A stretch of DNA of 64,000 bases. It comes from Naegleria gruberi. Lineage: Eukaryota. Below the pieces are notes generated by a model. That model had not been told where the DNA came from. It did not search any database and saw nothing but the letters and a program-made list of their open reading frames with translations. Positions 6,001 through 63,320 of this stretch are shown here, one piece after another. Each line of letters opens with the position of its first letter. Position 1 is the first letter of the stretch. The DNA is taken from the NCBI GenBank assembly GCA_000004985.1, contig GG738900.1; one strand, written 5' to 3'. A program made the position numbers and the translations under genes.

Positions 6001-9000
6001 NNNNNNNNNNNNNNNNNNNNNNNNNNNNNNNNNNNNNNNNNNNNNNNNNNNNNNNNNNNNNNNNNNNNNNNNNNNNNNNNNNNNNNNNNNNNNNNNNNNN
6101 NNNNNNNNNNNNNNNNNNNNNNNNNNNNNNNNNNNNNNNNNNNNNNNNNNNNNNNNNNNNNNNNNNNNNNNNNNNNNNNNNNNNNNNNNNNNNNNNNNNN
6201 NNNNNNNNNNNNNNNNNNNNNNNNNNNNNNNNNNNNNNNNNNNNNNNNNNNNNNNNNNNNNNNNNNNNNNNNNNNNNNNNNNNNNNNNNNNNNNNNNNNN
6301 NNNNNNNNNNNNNNNNNNNNNNNNNNNNNNNNNNNNNNNNNNNNNNNNNNNNNNNNNNNNNNNNNNNNNNNNNNNNNNNNNNNNNNNNNNNNNNNNNNNN
6401 NNNNNNNNNNNNNNNNNNNNNNNNNNNNNNNNNNNNNNNNNNNNNNNNNNNNNNNNNNNNNNNNNNNNNNNNNNNNNNNNNNNNNNNNNNNNNNNNNNNN
6501 NNNNNNNNNNNNNNNNNNNNNNNNNNNNNNNNNNNNNNNNNNNNNNNNNNNNNNNNNNNNNNNNNNNNNNNNNNNNNNNNNNNNNNNNNNNNNNNNNNNN
6601 NNNNNNNNNNNNNNNNNNNNNNNNNNNNNNNNNNNNNNNNNNNNNNNNNNNNNNNNNNNNNNNNNNNNNNNNNNNNNNNNNNNNNNNNNNNNNNNNNNNN
6701 NNNNNNNNNNNNNNNNNNNNNNNNNNNNNNNNNNNNNNNNNNNNNNNNNNNNNNNNNNNNNNNNNNNNNNNNNNNNNNNNNNNNNNNNNNNNNNNNNNNN
6801 NNNNNNNNNNNNNNNNNNNNNNNNNNNNNNNNNNNNNNNNNNNNNNNNNNNNNNNNNNNNNNNNNNNNNNNNNNNNNNNNNNNNNNNNNNNNNNNNNNNN
6901 NNNNNNNNNNNNNNNNNNNNNNNNNNNNNNNNNNNNNNNNNNNNNNNNNNNNNNNNNNNNNNNNNNNNNNNNNNNNNNNNNNNNNNNNNNNNNNNNNNNN
7001 NNNNNNNNNNNNNNNNNNNNNNNNNNNNNNNNNNNNNNNNNNNNNNNNNNNNNNNNNNNNNNNNNNNNNNNNNNNNNNNNNNNNNNNNNNNNNNNNNNNN
7101 NNNNNNNNNNNNNNNNNNNNNNNNNNNNNNNNNNNNNNNNNNNNNNNNNNNNNNNNNNNNNNNNNNNNNNNNNNNNNNNNNNNNNNNNNNNNNNNNNNNN
7201 NNNNNNNNNNNNNNNNNNNNNNNNNNNNNNNNNNNNNNNNNNNNNNNNNNNNNNNNNNNNNNNNNNNNNNNNNNNNNNNNNNNNNNNNNNNNNNNNNNNN
7301 NNNNNNNNNNNNNNNNNNNNNNNNNNNNNNNNNNNNNNNNNNNNNNNNNNNNNNNNNNNNNNNNNNNNNNNNNNNNNNNNNNNNNNNNNNNNNNNNNNNN
7401 NNNNNNNNNNNNNNNNNNNNNNNNNNNNNNNNNNNNNNNNNNNNNNNNNNNNNNNNNNNNNNNNNNNNNNNNNNNNNNNNNNNNNNNNNNNNNNNNNNNN
7501 NNNNNNNNNNNNNNNNNNNNNNNNNNNNNNNNNNNNNNNNNNNNNNNNNNNNNNNNNNNNNNNNNNNNNNNNNNNNNNNNNNNNNNNNNNNNNNNNNNNN
7601 NNNNNNNNNNNNNNNNNNNNNNNNNNNNNNNNNNNNNNNNNNNNNNNNNNNNNNNNNNNNNNNNNNNNNNNNNNNNNNNNNNNNNNNNNNNNNNNNNNNN
7701 NNNNNNNNNNNNNNNNNNNNNNNNNNNNNNNNNNNNNNNNNNNNNNNNNNNNNNNNNNNNNNNNNNNNNNNNNNNNNNNNNNNNNNNNNNNNNNNNNNNN
7801 NNNNNNNNNNNNNNNNNNNNNNNNNNNNNNNNNNNNNNNNNNNNNNNNNNNNNNNNNNNNNNNNNNNNNNNNNNNNNNNNNNNNNNNNNNNNNNNNNNNN
7901 NNNNNNNNNNNNNNNNNNNNNNNNNNNNNNNNNNNNNNNNNNNNNNNNNNNNNNNNNNNNNNNNNNNNNNNNNNNNNNNNNNNNNNNNNNNNNNNNNNNN
8001 NNNNNNNNNNNNNNNNNNNNNNNNNNNNNNNNNNNNNNNNNNNNNNNNNNNNNNNNNNNNNNNNNNNNNNNNNNNNNNNNNNNNNNNNNNNNNNNNNNNN
8101 NNNNNNNNNNNNNNNNNNNNNNNNNNNNNNNNNNNNNNNNNNNNNNNNNNNNNNNNNNNNNNNNNNNNNNNNNNNNNNNNNNNNNNNNNNNNNNNNNNNN
8201 NNNNNNNNNNNNNNNNNNNNNNNNNNNNNNNNNNNNNNNNNNNNNNNNNNNNNNNNNNNNNNNNNNNNNNNNNNNNNNNNNNNNNNNNNNNNNNNNNNNN
8301 NNNNNNNNNNNNNNNNNNNNNNNNNNNNNNNNNNNNNNNNNNNNNNNNNNNNNNNNNNNNNNNNNNNNNNNNNNNNNNNNNNNNNNNNNNNNNNNNNNNN
8401 NNNNNNNNNNNNNNNNNNNNNNNNNNNNNNNNNNNNNNNNNNNNNNNNNNNNNNNNNNNNNNNNNNNNNNNNNNNNNNNNNNNNNNNNNNNNNNNNNNNN
8501 NNNNNNNNNNNNNNNNNNNNNNNNNNNNNNNNNNNNNNNNNNNNNNNNNNNNNNNNNNNNNNNNNNNNNNNNNNNNNNNNNNNNNNNNNNNNNNNNNNNN
8601 NNNNNNNNNNNNNNNNNNNNNNNNNNNNNNNNNNNNNNNNNNNNNNNNNNNNNNNNNNNNNNNNNNNNNNNNNNNNNNNNNNNNNNNNNNNNNNNNNNNN
8701 NNNNNNNNNNNNNNNNNNNNNNNNNNNNNNNNNNNNNNNNNNNNNNNNNNNNNNNNNNNNNNNNNNNNNNNNNNNNNNNNNNNNNNNNNNNNNNNNNNNN
8801 NNNNNNNNNNNNNNNNNNNNNNNNNNNNNNNNNNNNNNNNNNNNNNNNNNNNNNNNNNNNNNNNNNNNNNNNNNNNNNNNNNNNNNNNNNNNNNNNNNNN
8901 NNNNNNNNNNNNNNNNNNNNNNNNNNNNNNNNNNNNNNNNNNNNNNNNNNNNNNNNNNNNNNNNNNNNNNNNNNNNNNNNNNNNNNNNNNNNNNNNNNNN

Positions 9001-12362: not shown

Positions 12363-14272
12363 TTGATCAACAGAAAAAATAAAAGCAACACAAAAGAAGA
12401 TTACAACATCATGTTCAACACAAGAGCAACTATTGTTGCTGCTGCTTCTCTAACAAGACTTGTCGTAAAATCCAAAGGTTCATTCTCCAACTCTACCAGA
12501 GCCTCACCAACAAAATTACTATTATTGAATGGAGGTTCTCAACAAACGACCAGTCGATCGGCTACTAATACAACCTCACCTGCGTCATCATCATCATCAT
12601 CGGAACAAACAATTCCATCTTCATGTCCTTATCATCAAAAGGATGCAACTTCCAACAAGGAAGAAGTAAAACCTCAACCATGGACTGAAGTGCCAGGACC
12701 AAAGCCATTGCCACTGATTGGTAATTTGATTCAAGTTCAAACCAATTCTAAAAACATGTCAGAATATTTAATGACACTATGTAAACAATATGGAGATTTA
12801 GTTAAATTGACTGTTTTTAATTTTAACATGTTGATGATTGCTAATCCACATTTATTAGGAGAATTATATAAAAAGGAAGAAAGAAGAAATGAAGTTGACA
12901 GTTTTAGACATTACAAATTGAAGAAGGGTCAAATTCTTACTCCAGTTGAAATGAGATATGATGAAGATTGGTATTCTATTCGTCAGCTTTATAACATTGC
13001 AATGAAACCAGAATATCAAGAAACCATTACACTTCCTCAATTATCTGAATTGAATGGAGACTTCATGAGAAGATTGATTAAGAGTTTGCAATCTGTCAAA
13101 GGAAGTGAAGCATTCAAATATGTCAACAGTTCAGAAACTAATTCAAGATATGCCTTTGATGTTGTCATGAAGGTCTTTCTTGTAAGTTCTATTCCAAAAT
13201 ATTTAAATATTTATATTTTAATACTAATTGAAATAATGTAGGGTGTGAAAATGACAGATGAAGTGACAAGCACTCTTCCATTCGATATTAATGAATTTGT
13301 CAATTATACTGTCCATGCCACTGATGTTGCTGTTAGATTGACAACCAAATTCCCAATGTACAAATATTACAGGACTCAAGAGTATAAAAGTTTTGAAAAT
13401 TTAATGGATAAATCATCAGAATATGCAAGATATTGCATTCAAAGATTCAAAACCAATCCATCTCAAAACGCCAGATTATTAGAATTGATTGAGGAAAGAG
13501 CTAAAGATCAAGATAGACCAGATGAAAGAGTTGAAAGCGTCTTGATGCAATTTTTACAAGGTGGTGTCGATATCACTGTTAGAATTATGAATAATTGCTT
13601 CCATAGATTAGCTCACCATCCTGAATGCCAAGAAAAGATTTATAAGGAATCTGTAGCAGTTTTTGGTGAACCATCATTGGAAGAAGTTACATCTGAAGAT
13701 GGACTTTCTATCAATTTGGAGCAGTACAAAAAGCTCAAGTATACCAAACACTTTATTGATGAGGTATTAAGATTGAATGCATTTGGTTATCTCACCATGG
13801 GAAGAAAATTGGATCAGGATACCGAAATTGGAGGATATATGATTCCAAAGGACACAATGATTCTTGCAATGCAAAGATGGGCAACTCTCAAAGATGAATT
13901 TGTTCCTCGTGGAGAAGAATTCATTCCAGAACGTCATGAAAAGGGTTCTCCATTAGCACCAGTCAATAATTTTGTTTCGCTACCGTAAGTAGTAGTTTGT
14001 TGTGGAATATCCCAATAATTTTCTAATATGAAAGATTTGGAGTTGGAGCTCGTAAGTGTCCTGGTTCACGTGTAGCAACCACAGAACTGCTCATTGGAAT
14101 TATCAATGCTGTCAGACATTTCCAGTTGTGCAACAATAATCTAGCATCATTCCCACCATCTTCTTTTGATCAATCCTTGCTTTATATTGATTCTGAAAAG
14201 TATCCACTTTATTTCACACCAAGAGATCATGTTAAGGAATTTGTAGAAAAGAACTCCAAGGTGTCTCAATAA
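12363..14272 (+). CDS. Cytochrome P450 monooxygenase, 3 exons: join(12363..13181, 13242..13984, 14035..14272). The N-terminus resembles a mitochondrial presequence.
   Basis: The last exon carries the heme-binding motif FGVGARKCPG. The introns are GTAAGT...TAG of 60 and 50 nt and restore the frame. The N-terminus is MFNTRATIVAAASLTRLVVKSKGSF. Confidence 0.85.
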
Positions 14273-14344: not shown

Positions 14345-16097
14345 TTATTTGTCAAGAATCTTTAAAGGAAGTTTGCCCTTCCATTCTGCAAACTTTTCCA
14401 GTAGCGGCATCATGTGAATAAGAATGAGAGAGAACATTCTAGTCTTCTTCCAAGCATCATGAGGATCCACCAAAATATCCTTCGAAATGTGTGGTTTCTT
14501 TGGTCTTGGGAAGTTGACACCAGTTGCAGCTCCTAAAATATCACCAACTGGATGTCTGGTCTTTTCTTGGTATTTGAGCAATTTAACAACCATATCACAA
14601 CTACTTGTAATTAAGCAACCTTAATAATAATCATATTAAGTATTAAATATTCATAAATACTTACCTGCACCATAACGTGGTTGACCCAATCCAATATAAA
14701 TCAAATTCTTTCTATTTGGAACAAAGATACCATGAATTAACTTTGGATATCCAAATTCAGTCTTTGTAACAAAATTATCCAACAATGGTACTGATGTAAA
14801 GTAACCAGTACAACAAACGATAACATCAAATTCCCTCTCTTCACCATTCTTGAATTCAACCTTATTTCCTCCTTTGAAACATTTGATATCTCCGTGTGGA
14901 TGAATTTCACCTAACTTTAAATATTGCAACAATTCAGAGTTAATAGTTGGGTGAGTTTCAAAGAGTCTGTGAGTTGGTGTTGGAATACCATAGTCCTTTT
15001 CATAGTCCAAACCAGTTGTAATTTTCAAAATCAATGTAAAGATTATTTGTTGAAGACGGAGTGGCAAATAAGGAATGATCAATTCAACAGATGGTTTACC
15101 AAATAAAGTTCTTGGTAAAAAGTAATAACCTCTTCTGATAGAAATGTGACTTTCCTTACCATATCTTGCAGCTTCAACAGCAACATCACAAGCACTGTTT
15201 CCTCCACCAATGACCAAAACACGTTTATCCTTAAAGATTGAAGGTTCCTTATAATCCTTACTGTGAATTAAGAGTCCAGTAAATTTGGATTGACCTTCAT
15301 AAGATGGCATTCTTCTACACCAATGGTGACCATTATTAATAATAACACCCTTATAGATACGTGTGAATTTTTGACCATTCTTTTCAAATTCAACCTTATA
15401 TTCAGAATCCTTATTCTCAACAGGTTCAATACTATTAACAGTAGTTTCCAATGATAATCTTTCAGCAATTCTGTAATGTTTACAATAATCATGGAAATAT
15501 TCCATCATTTGACGACAGGATGGGAATTGAGGGAATGAAGAAGGCATTGGATAATCTTTGAATTCAGTTGTCAATCTACTACTAATGATGTGTGTCGATT
15601 CATAAACTCCAACACTCCAATTACCTCCGATAACATTATTAGTATCTAATGAACAGAGTTAATTTTTCCATGAAATTTAAAAAGATTAACATTCGTGTGT
15701 GAATAAAATTATTCGATAATAATAATTAGAAACCTACCGACAATATCAAAAGGAATACCATAACGAGTCAATGTGGCACTACTTCCCAAACCACTGAATC
15801 CACAACCAACAATTAAAAATTTGTTTTCTAAATTAATTTAAATCATCAAATCATCAAATCATCATCGGATCATGAAAATATATTAATATTGATAAATTGA
15901 TTATAGTTTGAAAACATACCAGTCTTTTCGAATGGAGCATCACTGAAAATTTCATCATACTTGCTTCTATCGTAGTGGAATGGAAATTCAGTTGGAGGAC
16001 ATTTCACTGGATCTGACCAGTAGAAAATCAAATCACTCCAATAAAGCAAGTAGAGTCCCAATAGAGAGATGGCAATGCAGCCAAGAAGTATTAACAT
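14345..16097 (-). CDS. Flavin-containing monooxygenase (FMO), 4 exons: complement(join(14345..14619, 14665..15645, 15738..15827, 15920..16097)), ~507 aa. It has an N-terminal TM anchor.
   Basis: FAD motif LIVGCGFSGLG in exon 2. Motifs VLVIGGGNSACDVAVE and FxGxxxHxxxY-like are in exon 3. All donors are G|GTAAGT, G|GTAGGT or G|GTATGT in phase 1. Intron lengths are 92, 92 and 45 nt. Confidence 0.8.
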
Positions 16098-25177: not shown

Positions 25178-27193
25178 TTGAAAAAAATGCAAGAAGAATC
25201 TTCACCACTCGTTACTTCATCATCATCAACATCAAATCAACATGCTGCTGCCGATCATGAGGAATCATCTTCTTATAATAATAACACGTCAACTCCCACC
25301 CTGATTGAGGAGGATTATGGAGTGTATAAGAAACAACGACATCCTATCATTGTCAAGTTTTTGCAATTTAAACAATTCTATCAATCGGAAAAGTTGAGAA
25401 AAGTTCGGAGATGGATTGCATTTGTTATTGGTGCTGCCATGATGATTGCTGCTGGAACACAGTATGCATTTTCATCGATTAGTCCTTCTTTGAAAAAGTA
25501 AGTTGTGTGAAAAAGATCAATATATTTACCTAGTAATAATTATTTTAATTATTAATCATTGGAATATTAAAATAGACGATTTGATTTGACTCAAACGGAG
25601 GTGAATACTATTGGAACAGCAGCAAATTTGGGAACTAATTTCAGTTTTCTCTTTTCTTTGGTGAATGATTTTCTTGGAGCTCGTTCTTGTAGTTTTGTTT
25701 CTGGTGCCTTCTTGTTTGGATCTTATTTTCTGATGGCATTGACAGTTTCTGGAGCTATTCCAGGAGCAGAGAATTATATTGCACTTTCTGCATTCATGTT
25801 TATTATGGGTAATAGTAGTGGTGGAGCTTATACAGGTAGGTTTCGTATTGAGCTTTTTGAATTTATTATTTGCAGCTGCCATGACAACAAGTGTGAAAAA
25901 TTTTCCTGAAAGAAATAGAGGATTAGTAGTTGGTGTTCTTGCCTCATTCTTTGGTATCAGTAGTGCCATTTATTCTGGCTCATATCAGTATATTTTCCAA
26001 TTGCAATTACAACCTTACATGATATTTTGTGCCGTTTTGGGAGGAATAGTTGTCTTGATTTTGGGAACTGTATTTTTGGATGGAAAGTCTTCAGCCGATA
26101 AAAATGATGCTGGGAAGAAGGTATCTACTGCCAATACCATTAATTCATCTCAACAAGAAGCCACCACCACCTCTGAGGAAGGAAAGCCAATAGTTGTGGA
26201 TCCAAGCACTGGTGAGCTACCTGCAGAACAAACTTTGGAATCTACAACAATGATGGAAGAGGATACTCAAACCTATGAAGAAGATGAACTCAGGGAAAAA
26301 TTACAACAATTGGAAATTCCAAATGTTAACTCTTTGAAGATGCTCATTTCACTTGATTTCTGGCTTGCTTTTTTGGTTATTTTCATTGTAAGTGTGTGAA
26401 ATTTTAGATTTAACAATATATTTTTATAATTTACCTCTAATATAATAGGTTGTTGGATCAGGAATTACTGTCATTAACAATTTAGGATCACTCGTATTGG
26501 CCTATGGTGGATACAATGGCCAACAAAACATGATGGTGATTGTCTTTTCAATTTGTAATTGTTTGGGAAGATTACTTTTTGGTATCTTGAGTGACAAGTT
26601 ACTTTCTCCAAAGAGAGGTATCACTAGAATTACATTCCTTTCCATTTGTATTGTCATGATGACAGTCATTCAATTCTTATTTGCCGTGATGCCTCTTGAA
26701 GGTTTTTATCCACTTATCATTTTCTTGGGTGTAAGTTTTACTAAATTTTACAAAAAATTGTAAATCAAACGTGAACACCAATCAATTCATTCAAATTTGT
26801 CTCATAACTTTCCAGATTTGTTATGGAGGAACATATGCACTGACACCAACATTCAACAGTGAAAGATTTGGAGCTAAATATTTTGGTATGAATTCTACAA
26901 TTCAATCAATGGCAGCAAGTTTAGGATCCTATGCATTCTCAACTGGATTGGCCGGCTATTTGTATCAAGTTAATATTGAAAAACCAAGAACTCTAACATG
27001 TCATGGTAGACCTTGCTATGAAGCAACTTTCTACATTTTATCTCTTCTTGGTTGTGTTGCCCTGATTATTTCCTTAATTTTACACAAGAGAACTTTGTGG
27101 TTATACAAGACATTGTATAAGAGAAGACATTATGCAACGCTATTGGATCGATTGATTTCAAATAATGGAAAGAGTACAACTAAAAACATATAA
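25178..27193 (+). CDS. Nodulin-like MFS transporter, 5 exons: join(25178..25497, 25576..25835, 25876..26387, 26449..26730, 26816..27193), 583 aa
   Basis: Nodulin-like N-terminus (RWIAFVIGAAMMIAAGTQYAFSSIS) and multiple TM segments. Intron lengths are 78, 40, 61 and 85 nt. All junctions restore the frame. Confidence 0.75.
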
Positions 27194-42512: not shown

Positions 42513-43667
42513 ATGTGTAAACATACTAATATGAGTGTTTTAATGATGATCAGCATCACTCTGATGATGGTGGTCATTTTCATGCTAATTTCATCCACTC
42601 AATGCCAAAAATCCTATTCGATTGCTTCCATTGTTTCGAATATGACATTAACCACCAACAATGATGGATGTACATCCATGAAAATTGTTGAAGATCTTGA
42701 ATATTTGTTTAATGGAAGTTTCTCAAGAGTTGGAAGAGCATTTCCATACAATGTGCTTTCCAAAATTGATTCCTCATCATGGAAAATTGAAGTTTTGAAT
42801 TCTGGCTATTCGATTTCGTCTCAATTAGAATTAGGAAGCATCTCTTCCTTTATTGTTTCTACTTTGAGTCCTGCAACACCTTCGAATAGCATTACCAAAT
42901 TATCTATTCGAATGTCATTTTCTGCATTCCCAAAACTTGAAGTGATTAATTCCAATTCCCAATTGAGATATCACTACAAAGACAATGCTCCAATCTCTTT
43001 CATTTCGACAACCATTCTATTCGATTCTTCATTTAATTCCTATCCTTTGAATTCTTCAAATGGTCAACTCTATATTCAAAATAATTCCATGCCAATTGTA
43101 ACATTTAACATGAGCAACTTGTCTCCCAATACTGAATTTCAACCAATGGTTTCTATCAACAGTTTCGTCTCAAAAGATTGTGATTCTTCTCATAATACTA
43201 ATGAGAATCAATATGACAAGATGGACTCATCATTTACATATGGAATGGTTGGTGGTATAGTGGGTTTTTTTGTTTTGTTAATTGTTGTAACGGCGGCAAG
43301 TTTAGTTTGCGTCCATTTTTGCATGAAAAAACAATTCTTTAAGGAGAAGAAAAAACCAAAAGATAGAGAAAATCCAGATGAGGTACCTGTTTCGTCTAAT
43401 AAGGAAGAAACACAAAGAAACAAACCTATCTCAGAGTCTAAACCAAAAGTCAAATACGAAAATCCAACAAGCTATATTTCCAGCTATGAAGAGCCAACCA
43501 GTACAAATTATTATTCCAGTGATATTGACTATAGTGGTGGAGGTGGTGGATGGGATTCGAATACTGGAGGTGGGTGTGATTATGGTGGAGGTGGTGGTGG
43601 TGGATGTGACTATGGTGGCGGAGGCGGTGGATGTGATTATGGAGGTAGTTCTGGATTTGCTGATTAA
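42513..43667 (+). CDS. Type I membrane protein with a Gly-rich (GGGGG-CDYGG)x3 cytoplasmic tail, 384 aa
   Basis: Signal peptide MCKHTNMSVLMMISITLMMVVIFMLISSTQC, N-glycosylation-rich ectodomain, TM GMVGGIVGFFVLLIVVTAASLVCV, basic stop-transfer, then the tail. Confidence 0.6.
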   Translation: MCKHTNMSVLMMISITLMMVVIFMLISSTQCQKSYSIASIVSNMTLTTNNDGCTSMKIVEDLEYLFNGSFSRVGRAFPYNVLSKIDSSSWKIEVLNSGYSISSQLELGSISSFIVSTLSPATPSNSITKLSIRMSFSAFPKLEVINSNSQLRYHYKDNAPISFISTTILFDSSFNSYPLNSSNGQLYIQNNSMPIVTFNMSNLSPNTEFQPMVSINSFVSKDCDSSHNTNENQYDKMDSSFTYGMVGGIVGFFVLLIVVTAASLVCVHFCMKKQFFKEKKKPKDRENPDEVPVSSNKEETQRNKPISESKPKVKYENPTSYISSYEEPTSTNYYSSDIDYSGGGGGWDSNTGGGCDYGGGGGGGCDYGGGGGGCDYGGSSGFAD

Positions 43668-51397: not shown

Positions 51398-53656
51398 ATG
51401 TACAACGCTCAAGGTGGTGGAAATCATTCAACCGCCTCATCCACACCATCAACACAACAACAACCAACATCGGGTGGTGGTATTGGTGGACAACAGCAGC
51501 CTCTCTATTATGGATCGCCTTCTTTTAGTGCTGTGTCCTCTGGTAACCAGGGAATGACTTCACCAAGTAAAGGAATTTCATCGAATAGCACTGCCTTCTA
51601 TCCAAAGTTTTTCAATCCGTCCTCCTCTTCTCCCAATATGAATAATACCAACATCACCAATAATAATAATAGCAGTGTTGTTGCTAATAATAATATCGCT
51701 GCTAATAACAATAATAATACTACTATTCAATCATCACCTAAATTATCTTCATCATCATTTGTTTTTCAACCTAAGGGACAGAATTATAATGAAAATAGTG
51801 GACAACAAATTAATTTATCTTCCAATTCAACAACACCATCCTTTACTGCTGTACATGTAAGTGTAAATATGTGATCGATAATATTATAATGGCGATCAAC
51901 AAACAATAATATTTTGATTAACTTTGCTCTTTAACAATCAAATCTACTTTCATCACAATAATAACAGCAACAAAATCAACAGACATTCAATAACAAAAAG
52001 CTCCAATCCAAGTTACAATATGATCTCTACCAACAACATCTCCAACATAAAAGAAATACTCCTGTAACATCATCACCACATTATCATCATCATAATAATG
52101 TTAATGATAATAACAATAACGGATCATATATTTTCACACCTGCTGACATGTCAACCGATCCAAAATCTGCTTATCGTGGTATTCACAACTTTTTTGTTAA
52201 TGATTCACTGAGGAACATTTTGTTAAATAGAGGACTCATGAATTATGTACAAAGTTTGGATGATATTGATGAAGAAACTATGAATCAAGGAGATATTGCT
52301 GAGAGAATTTCACAAATTCCAAGATATATCGATCAATATCACTCATTCTATCCATTAGATCAAAACTTTTGGAGCGACAATAGTATCCAAGAAATTGATT
52401 TTGCCTTTGGTCAATCATTTAGAGTAATAGACTCTGCTAGTGCTTCCCCATGTTGTTTGAGACGTATTAGTGAACATCAAATTCTTTCAATTGAACAAGC
52501 TTTGACTAGTGCCGATCCATGGTTCAAGATCAAACATCCAAATATTGTCTCTTTGAAACAAGTCATCTCTACTGATCAATTCGGAAATGATAATGATTTA
52601 TTGTTTATTTATGACTATAGTCCTGGAGCAGAAACTTTGGAAGAACACTTCTTTATTGAGACCTCTAGAGCTCCTGCAGAATCTACATTGTGGAGTCTTA
52701 TTTGCCAATGTCTCAGTGCTCTAAGAGAAATTCACTCTAAGAATTTGGCCTACAGAACCTTTTACACCAACAAGATTATTATTCTTCCAGGGTTAACAAA
52801 CAAGAGATTCAAGTTGAATTGTTCTGGTATGCTTGATATTTTGGAAAATACTGAAGAGGCTGATATTGCTGCACAACAAAAGGAAGATTTTAAACATTTT
52901 GGTATTTTACTTGTAGAATTAATGTGCACATTTAGAGAATTGAGCGATGCTCCACATGCTTTGTCAGTTTTGAACAATAGTGAGGTAGGTTTTTTATTTT
53001 AAAATTTCTAATTAATTTAAATTATTTATATTAATATATTAATTTATAATTAATAATATTCTTATTTACTATTATATTAAATAATTTGAAATTACAGAGT
53101 ATTTCTTGTAAATACTCTACAGAACTTGTTGACTTTGTAAAGACCCTCCTCCAAGATGACATTGACTTGAACAAACTCATCTCAAACATTGCTTTGAGAT
53201 ATGTCGATGAATTGTCTACCATGTACAATTATGTAGATACTATTGAAAATGAATTAGCTAAGGAATTAGAAAATGGACGTTTGTTTAGATTGTTGGTCAA
53301 ATTGAACTTTGTTGCCCAACACGAAGAGTAAGTATTTCTCACATGTTTCCATTATTTAATTTACATTTTCACATAACAGCTTTGAATTTAGCACCAAAAA
53401 CAAGCAAGGAGTAACAGATAGACAAATGCTCAAACTCTTCTGTGATTATTTATTCGTTCAAGTCTCAGATACCAATCAATGCATTCTTGATTTTGGACAT
53501 ATTGTTGAAACTTTGAACAAACTAGATGCTGGAACCAATGAAAAGGTACTACTTATGAGCAGAGATGAACAATCGCTCATCGTAGTGACCTACAAGGATT
53601 TGAAGAATTCCATCAAGACTCAATTCGCCAATCTCCTTCGTAAAAATAAAGTATAA
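51398..53656 (+). CDS. PAN3: PAN3 (PAN2-PAN3 deadenylase regulatory subunit, pseudokinase), 4 exons: join(51398..51856, 51968..52984, 53098..53327, 53380|53392..53656), ~660 aa
   Basis: Pseudokinase core HPNIVSLKQVISTDQFGNDNDLLFIYDYSPGAETLEEHF…WSLICQCLSALREIHSKNLAYRTFYTNKIIILPG, then a coiled-coil and a C-terminal knob. The introns are GTAAGT/GTAGGT. The last acceptor is ambiguous; both candidates are in frame. Confidence 0.7.
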
Positions 53657-53671
53657 AAAAACAATTAAAAA

Positions 53672-56239
53672 TTAAACTCCCTTTCTTGGTTTTAATGTGA
53701 ACTTTAAGGCAATGTAAGCAATGATTCTCATTCCAACTGAGATACCCAAAACTATTCCCAAATTAACCCAAGTATTCATCAGGCCATTGTTCATTCCATA
53801 ATAATCGAGAATAAAGTCGAGATTTGGATATGGACACGATTCGTCTTGATCAGTTGGACAGTCTATTGTTCTTCCACCAAATTCATTTACAATGAGAGCT
53901 TTAAATCCATAATTGAATGGTGAAAAGTAGGTGAACCAAGCCAAGTAAACTGGAATTTGATCGATATTTCTATAAAATCCAGAAAAGACATGGAAAGTTG
54001 TTGAAATGGGAGGTAAAAGCATGGTGGCAATTTCTACACGCCTCACTAGAATGGCCAAAACCATTCCAAAACTATGAGCTGCCTGTGAAAGTACCAAAAT
54101 AATCAAAATGAACATTAAAAATCTATCAATAGTTAAGGTCAATCCTGCCAACAAGTAAACTATCGTTCCAAAAAACACTGGATGAGGAATAATCAACAAC
54201 ATATCCGCAAAGAACTTTCCAAAATAATAACTACTTATTGAAAAACATTTAGCACCTCGTTCTCTTAAAAAGTACAATCTCTCTCCTCTGAAAATTGAGA
54301 TTGGAGTACCAAATGAATTCGACCACTGATTAGTAACCACAAAGAAGAGCAAACCAAGCTTATTCTGAACTGAATTTTGATCATTCTTTGTCTGAAAGTA
54401 AATAAATCCAACTAAAATTGCATAAATAATTTGTTGAATAACTCGAATTTTTGTAAATTTGAAATCTCTGTACTGATTGAGGAAACTTCTTAAAAACATG
54501 ACAAGGAATTGAGTCCACCATGTTGATTTCTCCACTTTTGGTAAAGTACATTCTCGTAATTCGAAAGTGTCATGCACAGATGGAATAATCTGTTGCTTAA
54601 TCTTTTCAAAACTGTCAACAATCTTATTAATCCTTTCCATTTCACTTTCATGTGTCTTTTCATGAGCAAATATAGCATGTGAATCCTCTGTTATCATATC
54701 CATCACAAAATCTGCTGGATTGTAATTGTCATTCATTGCAAAACCAATCTTTTTAAAATACTTTACAACTTTGCTAGTTGATCCAAAGTATGCAATTTTA
54801 CCACTTGCTAACAGGAGTAAATTATCCAGATAATCCAAAATATCAGATCTAGGTTGGTGAATTGTCATAATCACTGTAATATTATGAGTTTTGGCAACGT
54901 GTGAAATTGTTTGAACCACGTCGAGGGCTGTCTTTGAATCAAGGGATGTACTTGGTTCGTCTAGAATCAAAATTGGAGGATTGGTGAGTAGAGCAATCGC
55001 AATGCCCAATCTCTTTCTTTCACCTCCACTAATTCCTTTGGAAAGTCCAACTTCACCAATTAAGGTATCAGCACACTTTTCCAATTTGAGTAATTGAAGA
55101 ACGTAATCAACTTTTTTCATCTTTTCTTGATAAGAAGTCGTTGAAGGAAGTTTCAACATGGCAGAATATCGTAAAGTTTCTCTAACTGTCAAATTTCCCA
55201 TCAATAAATCATCTTGATAGACATATCCCACTAATGATTTCAATCTATTTTTCACAACCATTCCATTTATAATAATTTCACCACTCGTACATTTCGTCTG
55301 TCCAGCTAAAATATTTAAAAGTGAAGTTTTTCCTGCTCCACTAGGTGCCTAAATTAATTTCCAAAATTGGTAATATAACATTTACACTCTCTCCAACAAT
55401 TCAAATCATTTCCAACTTACCATGATAGCCAATATCGATCCTGGATATGCAATACCATCAATTCCATTCAAAATTTGAATAAATTTACTTGGTTTTTCCA
55501 TTTTTGAATCGCCTTCCTTTTTTAAACTTTTTGAAATGATATCATTGAGGAAACTAGTTTCTCTTTTGACCTGATAACAAATATTTCTCCATGAAATAAT
55601 TGCTCCAGTTTCATGTTTTTCATTTTTCCAATCTTGGAATTGATCCAGATAAATTTCACTATACGAAACTACGTCCGATTTACGAAATGAACCTTTTGTG
55701 GGAGAAACTAGCTTTTTCACAACATCTACTAAAGTTTCTGTTGGAGTTTTTGCGGAATCTTTTGAATTCATCTTTCGAATAGAATAAGACGAACCAGTTT
55801 TCTTCATTGAATGTTCCTCAATTTGTTTTTCATGTGTTCGAATGATTTTTGACAAATCCAGAGATATGTTATAATCATCTTCCACTAGAATGTGAGTTTC
55901 GTCTGAAGAAGTTGAAGAATTCGGTGAAGGAATCTCAATATTCGAAAGACTATTCGAATAGTAAACTTTGTGATGATTATCAACATTATTATCAATGGCA
56001 TATAATAAATTTGGCGTATTCGGTGATATTTCATAAATTTCTGGCGTTCCAAAATTTACAGTTTTCGTCTTGGTATGCTCCCGAGCTGTTGTTGGTATTT
56101 CTAATGTTTGTTTAGTTTCGTTTTGTTTCGTTTCATCCAATATGATGATGTTTTCTTCGTCTGCATGTACGATTGCTGTACGTCGACGAGTCATGGATGA
56201 TTGCTCCACATCTCGCCTTGTATTTGAAGATTCGTCCAT
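53672..56239 (-). CDS. ABC transporter, G-family half-transporter (NBD-TMD), 2 exons: complement(join(53672..55348, 55421..56239)), ~831 aa with a Ser/Thr-rich N-terminal extension
   Basis: …ISWRNICYQVK…GSILAIM|GTAAGT…TAG|APSGAGKTSLLNILAG (Walker A split by a 72-nt intron). ABC signature ISGGERKRLGIA, Walker B ILILDEPSTSLD, and six C-terminal TM helices. Confidence 0.8.
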
Positions 56240-58277: not shown

Positions 58278-58715
58278 TAACTAACACCAACAATTTTATT
58301 AATTGTTTCTTCAATTTTGTAACGATTACCAAGTTCCAAAAAATGTTAACAAATCATCAGGCAAAAAGTTAGTTTTCTTCAATGTTGCGAATTTTTATAA
58401 GAATAATAATAATTGCTTGTTTATGATCATTACCATCATCATGATGAACGAATACTGATACTAATAATAATAATAATAATAATTTAATTTTTATATTACT
58501 GAATTGATTGATGAACAATTGATGAATAATTAATTATAGGGAAGGGAGAAAATAATTCCTTGTGCAACCGATCAAGATCGGGTCGTGAATTTGAAGGTTG
58601 TACAGTGAATCGTATCTTTGCAAGCTTTTCTCATACATTTTCCAGTACAAATCCAAAGTTTCAAGACAATTATACTCCTCTCGATCATAGTAAATATGAA
58701 TTATACGAGTGGAAA

Positions 58716-59915
58716 ATGTCGACCAATCAGCCACAAATTGTCATTAAGGAAGTTAGTACTGGAAAGGACTATATGACATTATTAACCATGGATGGTCGAT
58801 TGTTGTTTATGGGACAAAATACATTTGCATTGGGTTCTGTATTGAGTGGAGAAAAGCTTCCTGATTATGTAACATGTCTGGAGGAGGCTTGTGTAAAGGT
58901 AGTCAGTGGGAGAGGTGATAATGGTGTAGGAGAAACCTTTTTAGAATTGGGTAAGAAGGAGACGAGGAATTTTCTTCATGTTGGAAGTGGAATGTACTTT
59001 ATGGTAGTTCTTACGTCAGATTATAGATTGATTTCTTCTGGATCTAATGAGTGTGGACAGACAGGTGTTGGTCAAAATGCTAGTAGCATGGGAGGTTTTT
59101 CTGAATGTGTTTTCAATAAGGATTTACAAGATTCAAAGAATGAAATATTGAGAGGAATTGTTAAAATTGCATGTGGATACCAACATTGTATGATATTGAC
59201 TAGAGATGGAACAATGATTGGAACTGGGTGTTCCTACCAACGTCAATTAGGTCCAATTGAAAATGATATATCCTATGAATTTACAAAATTAGTATCTCCT
59301 GAAACGACTACTCCAATAGTAGATATTCAATGTGGATACTTTAGTAGTTCATGTATTGACGCTAATGGAATGGTATATGTAGTTGGACAAGAGAGTTACA
59401 CTCGACTCGTCGCTGCAGAGAAATGGACCAAATTACAAACTTTTATTTATGATCCAGTTCAATACATGACAATGAGTTGTTCCAATTCATTCTTTCGAAC
59501 AACAAGTGGATTAGTCTATCACAATTGGGGAAGTAATGATGACAATGAAAACAAACCATTTGAGAATTTGCAAAAATTAAGTGAGATACCTAATGTGGAA
59601 TATATATTTGGAAAGGAAAATTTCTTAGCTGTAACGGAATCTAAGGATATCTATCTCTCCACAAACTCTTCTTGTTCTGGAATTATTAAACCACCAACAT
59701 CTGATACTCGTTGGTTTGAATACAATGGCCTCAAACAACACATTCCTAAAAATGGAAGATATCAACTATTCATCGCCGATGCATTCAGCTTTTACATGTA
59801 CTTTATTCTATCCTCCAATAAGGAAGGTCACTTGAAGGATAATCTGAAAATTACACTCCAAAAAGGACAAACAGATTTTGAAAAGAATTATTTCATGGAC
59901 ATTATCATCAAGTAG
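58716..59915 (+). CDS. RCC1-repeat (beta-propeller) protein, ~400 aa; ATG at 58716
   Basis: Repeated …ACGYQHCMILTRDGTMIGTGCSYQRQLG… / …SSGSNECGQTGVG… motifs typical of RCC1 blades. Confidence 0.6.
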   Translation: MSTNQPQIVIKEVSTGKDYMTLLTMDGRLLFMGQNTFALGSVLSGEKLPDYVTCLEEACVKVVSGRGDNGVGETFLELGKKETRNFLHVGSGMYFMVVLTSDYRLISSGSNECGQTGVGQNASSMGGFSECVFNKDLQDSKNEILRGIVKIACGYQHCMILTRDGTMIGTGCSYQRQLGPIENDISYEFTKLVSPETTTPIVDIQCGYFSSSCIDANGMVYVVGQESYTRLVAAEKWTKLQTFIYDPVQYMTMSCSNSFFRTTSGLVYHNWGSNDDNENKPFENLQKLSEIPNVEYIFGKENFLAVTESKDIYLSTNSSCSGIIKPPTSDTRWFEYNGLKQHIPKNGRYQLFIADAFSFYMYFILSSNKEGHLKDNLKITLQKGQTDFEKNYFMDIIIK

Positions 59916-60120
59916 TAATCATACGAATTATTATACTTGTAAATATTAAACTTGTTAAAGATCATCCTTCACCATATATGATTACTACTACTTCAAAACC
60001 AAGTACAGACCTCATGACCATATACCATCACATTTACAAATAAATTCAGTGAAAATCCTGCAACTGTAACTCTTTAAAAAAAAACGGCGCACTATTTTTT
60101 GTGAATATTTTAAAAAAAAA

Positions 60121-60946
60121 ATGAAAAATTCCTTTACTGCCTCCGTCGTGATGACCATTTTCATGGTTGTTGTGTTGATGAGTTTATTGGCGCTTGATGT
60201 TGTTGAAGGTATTATGGAATCTCGTGTTCGTTTAATTGACTCCAACTCACAATTAAATCGTTTCCTCTTCCGTGGTAATACTCCAATTGAACATGGAAAT
60301 TTTGCGATTGGAAAGTTGAGAGATTTAGTCAGAGAGGTTGGAAAGAATAATAATGTTCAAGTGCCTGATGAATTCTATTTGATTGATGTATCATTCTTGA
60401 ATATGTTTGAAGAAGATTTGAAGGATGAAACAGAATATTTCAAAGCTAATCCACATATTGGTGAATTGGTTCATTGGACTATTATTGGTAATCCAATCAA
60501 TGGTACTGATTTACCTGAATGGTTGAGAAAGGATCTTGCTATTTATGAAAAGAAATGGGATAGAGAAGATAAATTGATCGATAGAGTCGATCAGCTCTAT
60601 AACTGGATTCACACTCAAGATAGCATTCATAATTTGAATCAAGATGCTCAATCTGCCAAAGCTTTGGTTTTCTACATCCATTGTGAGGCTGGAATGGATA
60701 GGTATGTAGAGTTTCATATTATTTAAAGTTGTTAACAAGTGGAATAGAACTGGTGAAGTTTCAGGTTCATATTATTTAAAGTATAACAAGTGGACATATA
60801 TGCAGACTTTGGAATATGATTATCATGTCGAAAATAGACCAATTGAGTTCATGTCACAAAATGCATTGAACTGGTTCTGTTGGCATCAATTTTACACTCT
60901 TGGTTATCCAACTGATTGTAACTTGTCACCAAGCAGAAACAAATGA
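60121..60946 (+). CDS. Secreted protein-tyrosine-phosphatase-like enzyme (Y_phosphatase3-type HCxxGxxRTG P-loop), 2 exons: join(60121..60701, 60748..60946)
   Basis: Signal peptide MKNSFTASVVMTIFMVVVLMSLLALDVVEG. The P-loop VFYIHCEAGMDR|TGE is completed only after removing a 46-nt GTATGT…ATAG intron (phase 2). Confidence 0.65.
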
Positions 60947-60989
60947 ATTTAATTTTTTGTGTCAATTTTGTTTATTAATATGAGGAGGA

Positions 60990-61610
60990 TTATTCAAGAC
61001 TTTGAATCAGATCATAATGTTGTTTCTTTTCATCGTAGGATAACCAAACTTCCTTATTCACATTTTTCACATGTTCTGGATTGACTTCAATCACTTCAGA
61101 TTGAATAATCTTCCCAGAGACAATCAAAATTCTAAAGGCAACATTCGGATACACTCTACTAGCTGCCACAACACTTGTAAAATCACCAAAAGTTCCACTC
61201 TTACTCAAACTATTCAAATATTCATCAAAACTTTGTCCTTCCTCAACAAATAGAGCATGTTTCAACTCTAATCCATCAATTTTAGTTTCCAAATTATTTC
61301 GCATCCAACCAACAATTTCCTCTCTCAATTTTTGATGATTCTTTCCATTATTAATTCCTTTCGAAAGACTATCATAGAGACAATTGCCATCCGATACGGA
61401 GGGAATAATTTTGAAATGATCAGTTAGTAATTTTCCTCGGAGTGATGATGATGATGAAATATTGTTATCAGCAAAAGAAAATCTTGATGCAGAGAAATTA
61501 CGCAAATAATTAATTTTTCTATTATTACTTGAAAAATTGGTGAATTGTTTTCTGCTTATAGATTTAATCATTTTTTTTTGATTTTTAAAAATTGTAATGG
61601 AATTGAGCAT
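60990..61610 (-). CDS. OTU-domain cysteine protease (deubiquitinase-like), 206 aa, with an N-terminal presequence-like region
   Basis: IPSVSDGNCLYDSLS (catalytic Cys box) … HYDLI (His box). The N-terminus is MIKSISRKQFTNFSSNNRKINYLRNFSASRFS. Confidence 0.7.
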   Translation of the reverse strand: MLNSITIFKNQKKMIKSISRKQFTNFSSNNRKINYLRNFSASRFSFADNNISSSSSLRGKLLTDHFKIIPSVSDGNCLYDSLSKGINNGKNHQKLREEIVGWMRNNLETKIDGLELKHALFVEEGQSFDEYLNSLSKSGTFGDFTSVVAASRVYPNVAFRILIVSGKIIQSEVIEVNPEHVKNVNKEVWLSYDEKKQHYDLIQSLE

Positions 61611-61650
61611 ATTTGGTAATTGTTAATAAATTGTTAATAATAAATTCATT

Positions 61651-63320
61651 TTACTGTATTCCAGCAAGTTGTTTCAATGTAGCATCATTGATTCCCTCCT
61701 TTCGAATATCTTCTCTGCATTTCATATCGGTGGCTGATAAGTTCCATAAGGATTTGGCTGCGAATGAGCTCACTTGCTTATCCTTTCCATTGGCAAATCG
61801 AATTAGTTGTGGAACAATTGCATGAGAGAGGAGAATCTTTTGATTTTCTGCATTCTTGGTCATGTTAAATAAGGCAGCATTATACGATTCCAAATTTGGT
61901 TGTGGAATTGGACATGGAGATTTGGAAAACCATTCAGCAATGAGTTTTACAAAACCACTCTCTCTAAATGCCTCAATATTTTCTCTCATATTGGTCAATT
62001 TGACCAACAAACTTGTGGCCATATTGAAACAAGATGGTTTTTGAGAGGCAATGCTAATTTCATCTCTCAAAAAATTGGTCAAAATAATTAAACCTCCCTT
62101 AGATTGTGAAAATTCGAGGCACATTTCTGGACTAGCATAGCATAGGGAAACTACTGAGGAGAGGACATGTTCGAGAGCTGTCTTGTTTTTTGAAGAGAAC
62201 TTTTTGAAGGCCGACACCAAATTGGACATGATGAATGTGTGTTCGTGGAGTTGAGCGGAAATTTCTGGATTTTGGACAATGTTTCCAACTGCTCCTGCAG
62301 CACTTTGAGCAATTGAATCAACTGCATGAGTGAGGAAATTGCTTACCACTTTCAATGCCCTAACAAGTTGAATTTCAGAACATTGTCCCTTCTTTTCACA
62401 TACAAATGAGAGTGACATTAGACAGTTAGCAAGTCATTCATTATTTTCACTGTTTGGATTCTCTAAAACGGAAACCATCTTTTCCACAAATCCTTCCTTT
62501 ACCAATAATTTCTGAATGGAACCACTCTCATCATCACTGACAATTAAATTGTAAACACAAAAGACAGTTTTCGATCTGATTTGTTCCAATTGTGTTAAAT
62601 CTATTTGTTTCACTAAAATCCTGAGAAGTGATTGATCATTGGCTGAGTTTTGTAATTTCTGAGCCATGTATTTTCCAGTGGTTGCACTTGTAGAGCTAGT
62701 TGTGGTGGAATTTGAACTTGCTTTTACAATTTTTGTAATAAATGTTGGTTCCAAACTCAGGAATGAAATCAGTGATAACACATTTCGTTTCATTTCTTCT
62801 GTAAATTTGGCATCTTTCAATATTTCTGAAAAAACTTTGATTGAATTTTCCTGATTGACCATTTCTTTTCGTATTGAGGCATCATTATCCTCACATAAAT
62901 TAACCAATGCACCAATTCCATACTCTATAATCGCCAACTCACTTGAATGATTCTCCAAAACCTTGAAAATCATTGAAATTCCACTCTTAATTTCATTTCT
63001 ACATTTATCCAACGTTGCCAAATTCAGTAAAATTCCCAAAACATTCTTTACAATTCTCTTATCATTCTGTTGATCATTTAATAATGAAATTATTATCGGA
63101 ATCCCTCCCAATCTATGAATTTCAAACAAATTGGCATCTTCACTTGTCATGTTAAAAACATCTCCAATGGCGGACAATTTAACTAACGAATTTCCTGTTT
63201 TGATCTTGTTCAATAATTGACCTAAATCTTGTGGTTGGGAAGGAGTAGCTTGTGCTGTGAAAAGTTGGTGTTGTGATCTAATAAAACCGCACAGAAAAAG
63301 TACCTACTCATGTTTGACAT
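61651..63320 (-). CDS. Armadillo/HEAT-repeat protein. Structure is complement(join(61651..62418, [in-frame TGA at 62434-62436], 62437..63254, 63308..63320)). A tiny first exon (MSNM) is spliced via a 53-nt GTAGGT…CAG intron.
   Basis: Two long same-frame ORFs (259 aa + 255 aa) are separated by a single TGA. Repeat-helical ARM-like sequence runs throughout. The in-frame region upstream of 63213 has no ATG; the donor at 63307 and acceptor at 63255 restore a start. Confidence 0.55.

What the first reader, a model, noticed from the sequence alone, without database searches (positions are those of the whole stretch)
60702..60805. The intron splitting the PTP P-loop looks like a diverged tandem duplicate of the adjacent exon, a candidate recent intron gain
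Intron 60702-60747 (gtatgtagaGTTTCAtattatttaaagtTGTtaacaagtggaATAG) is followed immediately by exon sequence …gaaGTTTCAggttcatattatttaaagtataacaagtgga…. About 30 nt (tattatttaaagt[tg/a]taacaagtgga) are shared nearly verbatim. This is the pattern expected from intron creation by internal tandem duplication of an exonic segment carrying cryptic AG|GT sites. The canonical HCEAGMDR|TGE motif is restored only when the upstream copy is spliced out.
Basis: seen in the sequence. Interest (0 to 1): 0.55.

Follow-up and report, generated by a model that had tools for sequence, protein, structure and literature searches.

The report
Young intron copied from neighbouring exon
A 46-base intron that splits the catalytic loop of a Naegleria gruberi phosphatase-like gene is a recent, slightly decayed copy of the coding sequence next to it and is missing from every related species, which makes it a clear but not unprecedented example of how new introns arise.

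Summary
The window is Naegleria gruberi. Bases 60702-60747 have the form of a 46-nt GT-AG intron. Removing them restores HCEAGMDR|TGE and gives a 259-aa protein that aligns end to end with its orthologues.

The intron core matches the exon just downstream at 19/20 and 11/11 bases. None of 20,000 dinucleotide shuffles reached that alignment score, and only one other place in the 64-kb window, a simple GGT-rich repeat, comes close.

The genes of N. lovaniensis and N. fowleri, a 63%-identical metagenomic relative and more distant homologues are all intron-less and single-copy at this site. The intron copy carries N. gruberi-specific codons, so it was copied within this lineage. A second N. gruberi-type haplotype, 98.4% identical, carries the identical intron, so it is not an assembly artefact.

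The best single-event model is a 51-nt, 17-codon tandem duplication whose junction GTGGA|ATAG is still intact. The 5' splice-site region has been heavily remodelled, and the AGGT inside the repeat unit is not the site used today. A staggered break repaired with locally templated filler DNA explains the data about as well.

No RNA evidence was available. The mechanism class is already known, so this is a new member of a known kind. The public gene model of 201 aa is truncated.

The parts
60121..60701 (+). Exon 1 of the phosphatase-like gene (NAEGRDRAFT_72862). It runs from the start codon to the second base of the P-loop Arg codon. The P-loop codons H-C-E-A-G-M-D-R begin at 60679.
   Evidence: ORF list, spliced translation, identity to P0001 and alignment with orthologues.
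60702..60747 (+). 46-nt phase-2 spliceosomal-type intron, GTATGT...TTAAC...ATAG. It carries an in-frame TAA at 60724-60726 if it is retained.
   Evidence: Its size and signals fall within those of other short ORF-joining GT-AG candidates in the window. It is absent from all orthologues and identical in a second haplotype.
60748..60946 (+). Exon 2, including the stop codon. It encodes the third base of the Arg codon and then TGEVSGSYYLKYNKWTYMQTLEYDYHVEN...SRNK.
   Evidence: It aligns with the C-terminal part of the orthologues, with 15 invariant columns. It shows no differences from haplotype L004.
60698..60743 (+). Upstream, decayed copy of the repeat. It consists of the last 4 nt of exon 1 (ATAG) and the intron up to GTGGA. 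It is now 46 nt and was 51 nt under the best model.
   Evidence: Edit-distance scan over all simple tandem duplications and global alignment.
60744..60794 (+). Downstream, intact copy of the 51-nt unit, ATAG|AACTGGTGAAGTTTCAGGTTCATATTATTTAAAGTATAACAAGTGGA. Its first 4 nt supply the acceptor ATAG and the rest is coding.
60710..60743 (+). Well-preserved core of the intron copy, AGTTTCATATTATTTAAAGT-tg-TAACAAGTGGA.
   Evidence: Matches of 19/20 and 11/11 to 60763-60794. Identity is 30/32 to the N. gruberi exon, against 20-21 of 25-28 for three orthologues and 10 of 11 over a much shorter alignable stretch for the fourth.
60732..60736 (+). Candidate branch-point motif TTAAC, with the branch A 12 nt upstream of the acceptor. 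The exon copy reads ATAAC here.
   Evidence: Read from the sequence. Similar CTAAT, TTAAT and ATAAC motifs lie about 5-20 nt before the acceptors of other introns in the window. Its function is inferred.
60761..60766 (+). The only AG|GT inside the duplicated unit (TCAG|GTTC). It is not used as a splice site today. Its counterpart in the intron copy reads AGTT (G to T).

Best explanation
Bases 60702-60747 are a genuine, evolutionarily young spliceosomal intron of a Naegleria gruberi gene for a divergent Cys-based (CX5R) phosphatase-fold protein with a hydrophobic N-terminus. The intron was created in the N. gruberi lineage when about 50 nt of the gene's own coding sequence were copied in tandem. 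The best-fitting single event is a 51-nt, 17-codon duplication of ATAGAACTGG...AAGTGGA. The downstream copy stayed coding, and its first four bases (ATAG) serve as the acceptor. The upstream copy became the intron. Its 3' 30 nt are almost unchanged. Its 5' part was shortened by 5-7 nt and mutated into a strong GTATGT donor that sits directly after the exon-1 ATAG. That donor GT possibly descends from the GT of the Gly codon in ACT GGT GAA. Splicing removes the upstream copy exactly and restores HCEAGMDRTGE, so the protein is unchanged. Shown here: the repeat, its statistical significance, the absence of the intron from orthologues, the lineage-specific origin of the copy, and its presence in two haplotypes. 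Inferred: actual splicing, the order of events, and the descent of the donor.
For: The organism and gene were identified. The repeat is real and far beyond chance. Removing exactly 46 nt restores the frame and a motif that is nearly invariant across the seven homologues, with 15 invariant columns downstream of the junction. The gene length equals the CDS length, and the P-loop is contiguous in DNA, in N. lovaniensis, an ENA relative, a Logan relative, N. fowleri in three records and five distant metagenomic homologues. The neighbour-joining tree puts intron-less lineages both beside and outside N. gruberi. The intron core matches the N. gruberi exon at 30/32, including the Asn codon AAC seen only in N. 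gruberi among the aligned orthologues, against 20-21 of 25-28 for three orthologues. An independent 98.4%-identical haplotype has the identical intron and an intact 259-aa spliced CDS. It shows 0 changes in the 245 nt of intron plus exon 2, against 8 events in 325 nt of upstream intergenic DNA (Fisher p = 0.012). The best tandem-duplication model (51 nt, exact junction) needs 14 edits, against 18-24 for shuffled introns. The intron's size, donor type and branch-like motif resemble other short candidate introns in the same window. The mechanism class is documented and has been reproduced experimentally (PMC3265369, PMC3443670, PMC4974935).
Against: No transcript evidence was available, and the spliced 259-aa product is not in the protein collection. 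The public annotation treats the gene as an unspliced 201-aa ORF. The present splice sites are not at an AGGT of the unit. The first 8 nt of the intron cannot be aligned convincingly to the exon. Eleven of the 14 edits cluster in the first 23 nt or so (p = 0.002), so a simple duplication followed by uniform neutral decay does not fit, and remodelling or a complex initial event must be assumed. The margin of the duplication model over shuffled introns in edit distance is modest. No relative between 63% and 98% identity was found, so the date of the gain is only loosely bracketed. Orthology rests on best hits and single-copy status, because synteny with the other Naegleria species is not conserved around the gene.
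Confidence: 0.78

Rival explanations
1. The result is the same, a young intron copied from the neighbouring exon, but it was made in one step by error-prone repair of a staggered double-strand break. A 4-nt overhang (ATAG) was filled in on both sides, which produced the ATAG direct repeat at exon-1 end and intron end. The gap was filled with about 42 nt synthesised from a template that starts 5 nt downstream (GTGAAG...GTGGA), possibly with template jumps.
For: The ATAG at 60698-60701 is repeated at 60744-60747. Direct repeats of 4-12 bp between an exon end and the opposite intron end are the reported footprint of new Daphnia introns (PMC4202315). A hypothetical filler, the exon from GTGAAG to GTGGA plus ATAG, is exactly 46 nt and aligns with the present intron in 39 of 48 columns. 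The mosaic look of the copy, with segments of 20 and 11 nt separated by small indels, fits a polymerase switching templates.
Against: Two of the four repeated bases (AG) are obligatory for any acceptor, so the direct repeat carries little information. The same ATAG junction is predicted exactly by a plain 51-nt tandem duplication. The match in length requires compensating -2 and +2 indels. This mechanism has no in vivo demonstration, according to the 2012 review.
Confidence: 0.3
2. The 46 nt are not spliced. The gene is a pseudogene, or encodes a truncated 201-aa product as annotated, and was disrupted by a small frameshifting duplication.
For: The public model is the unspliced 201-aa ORF. There is no RNA evidence. 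The N. gruberi branch is somewhat longer than those of its relatives.
Against: The insertion begins with GTATGT, ends with AG and has a TTAAC 12 nt upstream of the acceptor. Removing it restores the frame and the conserved motif exactly. Exon 2 stays open for 66 codons in a 33% G+C genome and aligns with the orthologues. Two haplotypes that differ by 1.6% overall show no change in intron plus exon 2 and no disabling change anywhere in the CDS. The 201-aa product would lack the helix that follows the P-loop in the fold model.
Confidence: 0.06
3. The intron is ancient and was lost independently in all other sampled lineages. Its similarity to the exon is maintained by some function or by gene conversion.
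For: Intron loss is common in intron-poor protists, and only a handful of lineages were sampled.
Against: It needs at least two or three independent precise losses against one gain. It cannot explain why the intron shares N. gruberi-specific synonymous states and the Asn codon seen only in N. gruberi. No function for such a similarity is known.
Confidence: 0.03
4. The intron is a copy of a mobile intron-generating element (introner-like), and its similarity to the exon is coincidental.
For: Introner-like elements are a documented source of new introns in several protists and fungi (listed in PMC4974935).
Against: Nothing else in the 64-kb window resembles the intron beyond 9-15 nt chance words. 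The only meaningful match is the adjacent exon. The similarity to the exon is far beyond chance.
Confidence: 0.01

Closest known systems
[quoted passage not shown] 2011, PMC3265369; fission-yeast 24-bp AGGT repeats cited in PMC4974935)
   Same: An exonic segment is duplicated in tandem and one copy is spliced out. The coding sequence is unchanged, which makes it a 'precise' gain. The acceptor AG is a copy of the exonic AG that precedes the donor. The intron is absent from orthologues.
   Different: The donor GT is not the partner of a duplicated AGGT. The downstream copy has AA after its AG, and the unit's real AGGT (TCAG|GTTC) is unused. The 5' end of the upstream copy was shortened and rewritten into GTATGT. 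The host is a heterolobosean, a group not named in the 2012 review's table and for which my literature searches found no such case.
Potato RdRp intron gain (Ma, Lan and Niu 2016, PMC4974935)
   Same: It is a recent, lineage-specific tandem duplication in which the splice signals do not all come from a duplicated AGGT. The donor comes from a formerly exonic cryptic site. The authors argue that the duplication model is diverse in how signals are obtained.
   Different: In potato the duplication spanned an existing intron-exon boundary and inherited the branch site, polypyrimidine tract and acceptor from an old intron. Here the whole unit is exonic and the gene had no other intron.
New introns from staggered double-strand-break repair in Daphnia pulex (Li et al. 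2009; PMC4202315)
   Same: [quoted passage not shown] The intron is very young and has a mosaic internal structure.
   Different: The source of most Daphnia neointrons is unknown, whereas here it is the adjacent exon. The 4-nt repeat is at the lower limit of the range reported for Daphnia, and two of its bases are obligatory for an acceptor.

Membership tests
Intron gained by tandem genomic duplication | The intron is absent from the homologous position in orthologues and outgroups (derived state). | tested here: met
   The gene is intron-less in N. lovaniensis, N. fowleri (three records), an ENA relative, a Logan relative and five distant metagenomic homologues. Tree.
Intron gained by tandem genomic duplication | The intron sequence is homologous to the directly adjacent exon sequence (a tandem direct repeat) beyond chance. 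| tested here: met
   Matches of 19/20 and 11/11. None of 20,000 shuffles reaches the score. A 51-nt duplication with an exact junction is the best model.
Intron gained by tandem genomic duplication | Strict Rogers form: the donor GT and acceptor AG are the two halves of a duplicated AGGT at equivalent positions in the two copies. | tested here: not met
   ATAG is duplicated (60698-60701 and 60744-60747), but it is followed by GT in the upstream copy and by AA in the downstream copy. The unit's AGGT at 60761-60766 is not used.
Intron gained by tandem genomic duplication | The gain is precise, so the spliced coding sequence equals the ancestral one. | tested here: met
   The spliced product aligns with the orthologues without any gap at the junction, and HCEAGMDRTGEVSGSYYLKY is restored.
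Intron gained by tandem genomic duplication | The intron is actually removed from the transcript. | not testable with these tools
   No RNA data could be reached. The spliced protein is absent from the protein collection and no paper mentions the locus tag.
U2-type spliceosomal intron of N. gruberi | GT-AG ends, a branch-like YTRAY motif shortly before the acceptor, and a length within the organism's range. | tested here: met
   The intron reads GTATGT...TTAAC(12 nt)...ATAG and is 46 nt long. Other ORF-joining candidates in the window are 45-85 nt long with GTAAGT or GTATGT donors and CTAAT, TTAAT or ATAAC motifs. That comparison set is small and was derived heuristically.
Intron gain during staggered double-strand-break repair | [quoted passage not shown] | tested here: inconclusive
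   An ATAG/ATAG repeat is present. Only 2 of its 4 bases are free to vary, and the same repeat is predicted by the duplication model.
Introner-like or transposon-derived intron | There are many near-identical copies elsewhere in the genome. | tested here: inconclusive
   There is no other copy in this 64-kb window. The rest of the genome could not be searched.
Cys-based protein tyrosine / dual-specificity phosphatase superfamily (host gene) | An HCX5R(S/T) P-loop lies between a beta-strand and an alpha-helix of a PTP fold. | tested here: met
   HC-EAG-DRTGE is invariant in the seven homologues, with only the fifth loop residue varying (M or V). In the AlphaFold model of orthologue P0002 (pLDDT 80.5) a strand at 149-155 is followed by the loop and a helix at 162-172. 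All the best PDB fold matches listed (50 shown) are DUSP, RNA 5'-phosphatase, PTEN or other PTP-fold chains, but the matches are weak (E about 1e-3, TM 0.4-0.6).
Cys-based protein tyrosine / dual-specificity phosphatase superfamily (host gene) | The protein scores above the curated Pfam threshold for a PTP or DSP family. | tested here: not met
   DSPc scores 24.9 bits against a cut-off of 33.5. Y_phosphatase3 scores 19.6 against 22.2. PDB profile hits have E of 0.02 or worse. The protein is a divergent member, and membership of any named family is not shown.

The most novel reading that the evidence does not exclude
The intron was born in a single repair event: a staggered break plus filler DNA templated from 5 nt downstream. 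The product was spliceable at once. On this reading, wild N. gruberi-complex populations still hold intron-less or intermediate alleles, which would make Naegleria a tractable protist system in which intron birth can be seen with its source sequence intact and re-enacted experimentally.
Probability: 0.15. Interest if true: 0.6.

Novelty: new member of a known kind. Interest (0 to 1): 0.4.

Why it matters
Recently gained introns whose source sequence can still be read are scarce. The literature stresses that most reported gains leave no trace of their origin (PMC4974935). This case has three lines of evidence in a single-intron gene: polarity (intron-less relatives), source (the adjacent exon, with lineage-specific codons) and fixation (two haplotypes). 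I found no comparable case reported for a free-living heterolobosean.

It also shows a departure from the textbook AGGT model. The acceptor is inherited from the duplication, but the donor was built or repositioned afterwards.

In practice, the public model NAEGRDRAFT_72862 (XP_002672109.1, 201 aa) is truncated and should be a two-exon gene of 259 aa. The case does not reveal a new mechanism class.

Tried and rejected
- Tandem Repeats Finder found nothing at the locus. The array has fewer than two copies and they differ by indels.
- Exact look-ups of P0001 and P0003 returned no contigs. Cluster members P0008, P0009 and P0010 gave the DNA instead.
- The spliced 259-aa product is not in the protein collection, so there is no transcript-derived support.
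Orthologue P0002 was modelled instead.
- The one metagenome scan gave only distant homologues of 41% identity or less. None lies between N. gruberi and the 63% relative, so the gain cannot be dated more finely.
- Searches for the intron's first 13 nt and for the whole intron elsewhere in the window found only chance words. A dispersed-element origin was therefore set aside, as far as this window can show.
- A literature search for the locus tag found nothing.
- Bootstrap values are unreliable because of a rooting mismatch in my script. I use only the distance matrix and the topology. The position of the ENA relative with respect to N. gruberi is unresolved.
- The 'ancient intron' and 'pseudogene' readings were considered and rejected, for the reasons given under rival explanations.

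Full report
**Identity of the locus**

The window is AT-rich (about 33% G+C). The ORF at 60121-60726 is the Naegleria gruberi 'predicted protein' EFC39365.1 / XP_002672109.1 (NAEGRDRAFT_72862, 201 aa). That public model is simply the unspliced reading frame, which ends at a TAA eight codons after the P-loop arginine.

**The observation**

Removing 60702-60747 (46 nt, GTATGT...ATAG) joins GAT AG|A ACT GGT GAA in frame. This yields a 259-aa protein with HCEAGMDRTGEVSGSYYLKY.

The intron core is a direct repeat of the exon that follows. Bases 60710-60729 match 60763-60782 at 19/20, and 60733-60743 match 60784-60794 at 11/11. The two blocks are separated by TGT in one copy and A in the other. A local alignment of the intron with the next 70 nt scores 49. 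Twenty thousand dinucleotide-preserving shuffles gave a mean of 16 and a maximum of 37. When every 46-nt stretch of the window was compared with its own downstream neighbour, only this locus reached 49, and the one other place scoring 40 or more was a GGT-rich simple repeat. The intron has no other meaningful match in the window.

**Is the splice real?**

No RNA evidence could be reached. The spliced product is not in the 15-billion-protein collection and no paper cites the locus tag. The case therefore rests on four indirect lines.

1. Six homologues carry HCEAG(M/V)DRTGEV(S/A)G uninterrupted. These include N. fowleri, N. lovaniensis and a 63%-identical metagenomic relative. They align with the spliced N. 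gruberi protein from end to end with no gap at the junction, and 15 invariant columns lie downstream of it.
2. The insert has a consensus-like donor, a TTAAC 12 nt before the acceptor, and a length typical of the other short ORF-joining GT-AG candidates in this window. Those are 45-85 nt long with CTAAT, TTAAT or ATAAC motifs. That set is small and was derived heuristically.
3. An independent N. gruberi-type haplotype from an ENA metagenome (L004, 98.4% identical over 1418 nt) has the identical intron and exon 2 and an intact 259-aa spliced CDS. The 325 nt of upstream intergenic DNA carry 8 substitution or indel events, against 0 in the 245 nt of intron plus exon 2 (Fisher p = 0.012). This also excludes an assembly artefact.
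4. In an AlphaFold model of orthologue P0002 (pLDDT 80.5) the motif lies between strand 149-155 and helix 162-172. All the best PDB fold matches listed are DUSP, RNA 5'-phosphatase, PTEN or other PTP-fold proteins, although the matches are weak. A 201-aa product would end inside the catalytic loop.

The Pfam scores are below the curated thresholds. The host protein is therefore a divergent member of the Cys-based phosphatase fold, not a demonstrated member of a named family.

**Polarity: gain, not loss**

The gene length equals the CDS length in N. lovaniensis (831 nt for 276 aa), the ENA relative (684 nt), a Logan relative (792 nt) and N. fowleri. Six-frame translation shows the P-loop and the following helix contiguous in these loci and in five more distant metagenomic homologues.

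A distance tree places intron-less lineages both next to and outside N. gruberi (my bootstrap values there are unreliable). One gain is thus opposed to at least two or three precise losses.

More decisive is the sequence of the intron copy. It matches the N. gruberi version of the exon at 30/32 positions, including N. gruberi-specific synonymous states and the Asn codon AAC, where the other species have Leu or Phe. It matches three of the four orthologous exons at only 20-21 of 25-28 alignable positions; the fourth (L003) aligns over only 11 nt. The copy was therefore made within the N. gruberi lineage, after it separated from all sampled relatives and before the two haplotypes split. No relative of intermediate distance was found.

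**Anatomy of the event**

I compared the present sequence with every possible simple tandem duplication of the spliced (ancestral) sequence. The best is a 51-nt unit, ATAGAACTGG...AACAAGTGGA. That is 17 codons, so the duplication would have been in frame. Its predicted junction GTGGA|ATAG is present unchanged. The intron's last four bases, including the acceptor AG, are therefore a copy of the last four bases of exon 1. This part follows the logic of the Rogers model.

The model needs 14 further edits, against 18-24 for shuffled introns. Eleven of those edits fall in the first 23 nt or so after ATAG (Fisher p = 0.002). There, AACTGGTGAAGTTTCAGGTTCA (22 nt) has become GTATGTAGAGTTTCA (15 nt).

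The unit's only AGGT (TCAG|GTTC, 60761-60766) is not used, and its counterpart in the intron reads AGTT. A global alignment suggests that the present donor GT corresponds to the GT of the Gly codon in ACT GGT GAA. That is a cryptic GTGAAG donor brought next to ATAG by loss of AACTG. A hypothetical proto-intron built this way is also 46 nt and matches the present intron in 39 of 48 columns. This step is inference, because the first 8 nt cannot be aligned with confidence.

**Mechanism and rivals**

The favoured reading is a local tandem duplication followed by remodelling of the donor region. A staggered break (giving the ATAG direct repeat) filled with DNA templated from 5 nt downstream fits about equally well. 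It resembles the footprints reported for Daphnia neointrons (PMC4202315). The two models differ only in whether a clean 51-nt duplication ever existed.

The pseudogene, ancient-intron and mobile-element readings are each contradicted by specific results, as set out above and under the rival explanations.

**Comparison with what is known**

Intron gain by tandem duplication was proposed by Rogers in 1989 and was re-enacted for ATP2A1 (PMC3265369). A 2012 review counts it as the mechanism with the most identified cases (PMC3443670). Variants in which the signals do not all come from an AGGT are documented (PMC4974935).

This locus is a new, well-supported member of that kind in a heterolobosean, with a non-AGGT donor. 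It is not a new kind of system. I set interest at 0.4. It is a clean teaching-grade example, a corrected gene model and a possible entry point for experiments on intron birth, but the mechanism itself would not surprise a specialist.

Noticed in passing
window 60121-60946: The public N. gruberi gene model (XP_002672109.1 / NAEGRDRAFT_72862, 201 aa) is the unspliced ORF and is truncated inside the catalytic loop. The two-exon model gives 259 aa. N. fowleri records of the orthologue also disagree on the start codon (191, 253 and 284 aa).
   Followed up: yes
window 60121-60210, and P0004 and P0005: The protein and several orthologues begin with a hydrophobic, signal-peptide-like stretch and have invariant Cys residues near the C-terminus (WFCW and DC). 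The family may be secreted or lumenal. It falls below the Pfam thresholds and has few homologues (7 at E<=1e-3 among 5.8 billion proteins).
   Followed up: partly
L014 about 560-640: In a distant marine metagenomic homologue the motif reads HCEAGVDRTG, then 24 unrelated in-frame codons, then GEMSGNYMM. The 72-nt insert starts GC and ends CAG, with CAGGC at both ends. It may be an independent GC-AG intron or an in-frame insertion two codons downstream of the N. gruberi intron site.
   Followed up: partly
window 10675-11435: A tandem array with a 249-nt (83-codon) unit, 3.1 copies at 97% identity, lies inside a long minus-strand ORF. A CTGGTATGTAATG motif recurs at the 249-nt spacing. This is another recent internal duplication in a gene of this genome.
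   Followed up: partly
window 4291-9235: A run of 4945 N, which is an assembly gap.
   Followed up: no
window 43521-43640: A GGT/GGA-rich simple repeat. It is the only other place in the window where a 46-nt stretch resembles its downstream neighbour (score 40-44).
   Followed up: no
window 13182-13241, 13985-14034, 26388-26448, 53328-53379 (+); 14620-14664, 55349-55420 (-): Short (45-72 nt) GTAAGT...AG segments join long ORFs. They are probably introns of neighbouring genes and were used here only as a rough reference for intron size and branch-like motifs.
   Followed up: partly
window 58560-63213 compared with L001 and L007: The gene's neighbours in N. gruberi are an RCC1-like ORF upstream and OTU-like and ARM-repeat-like ORFs downstream. 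In N. fowleri and N. lovaniensis the neighbours are NUDIX upstream and NIF or protein kinase downstream. Local synteny is not conserved.
   Followed up: no
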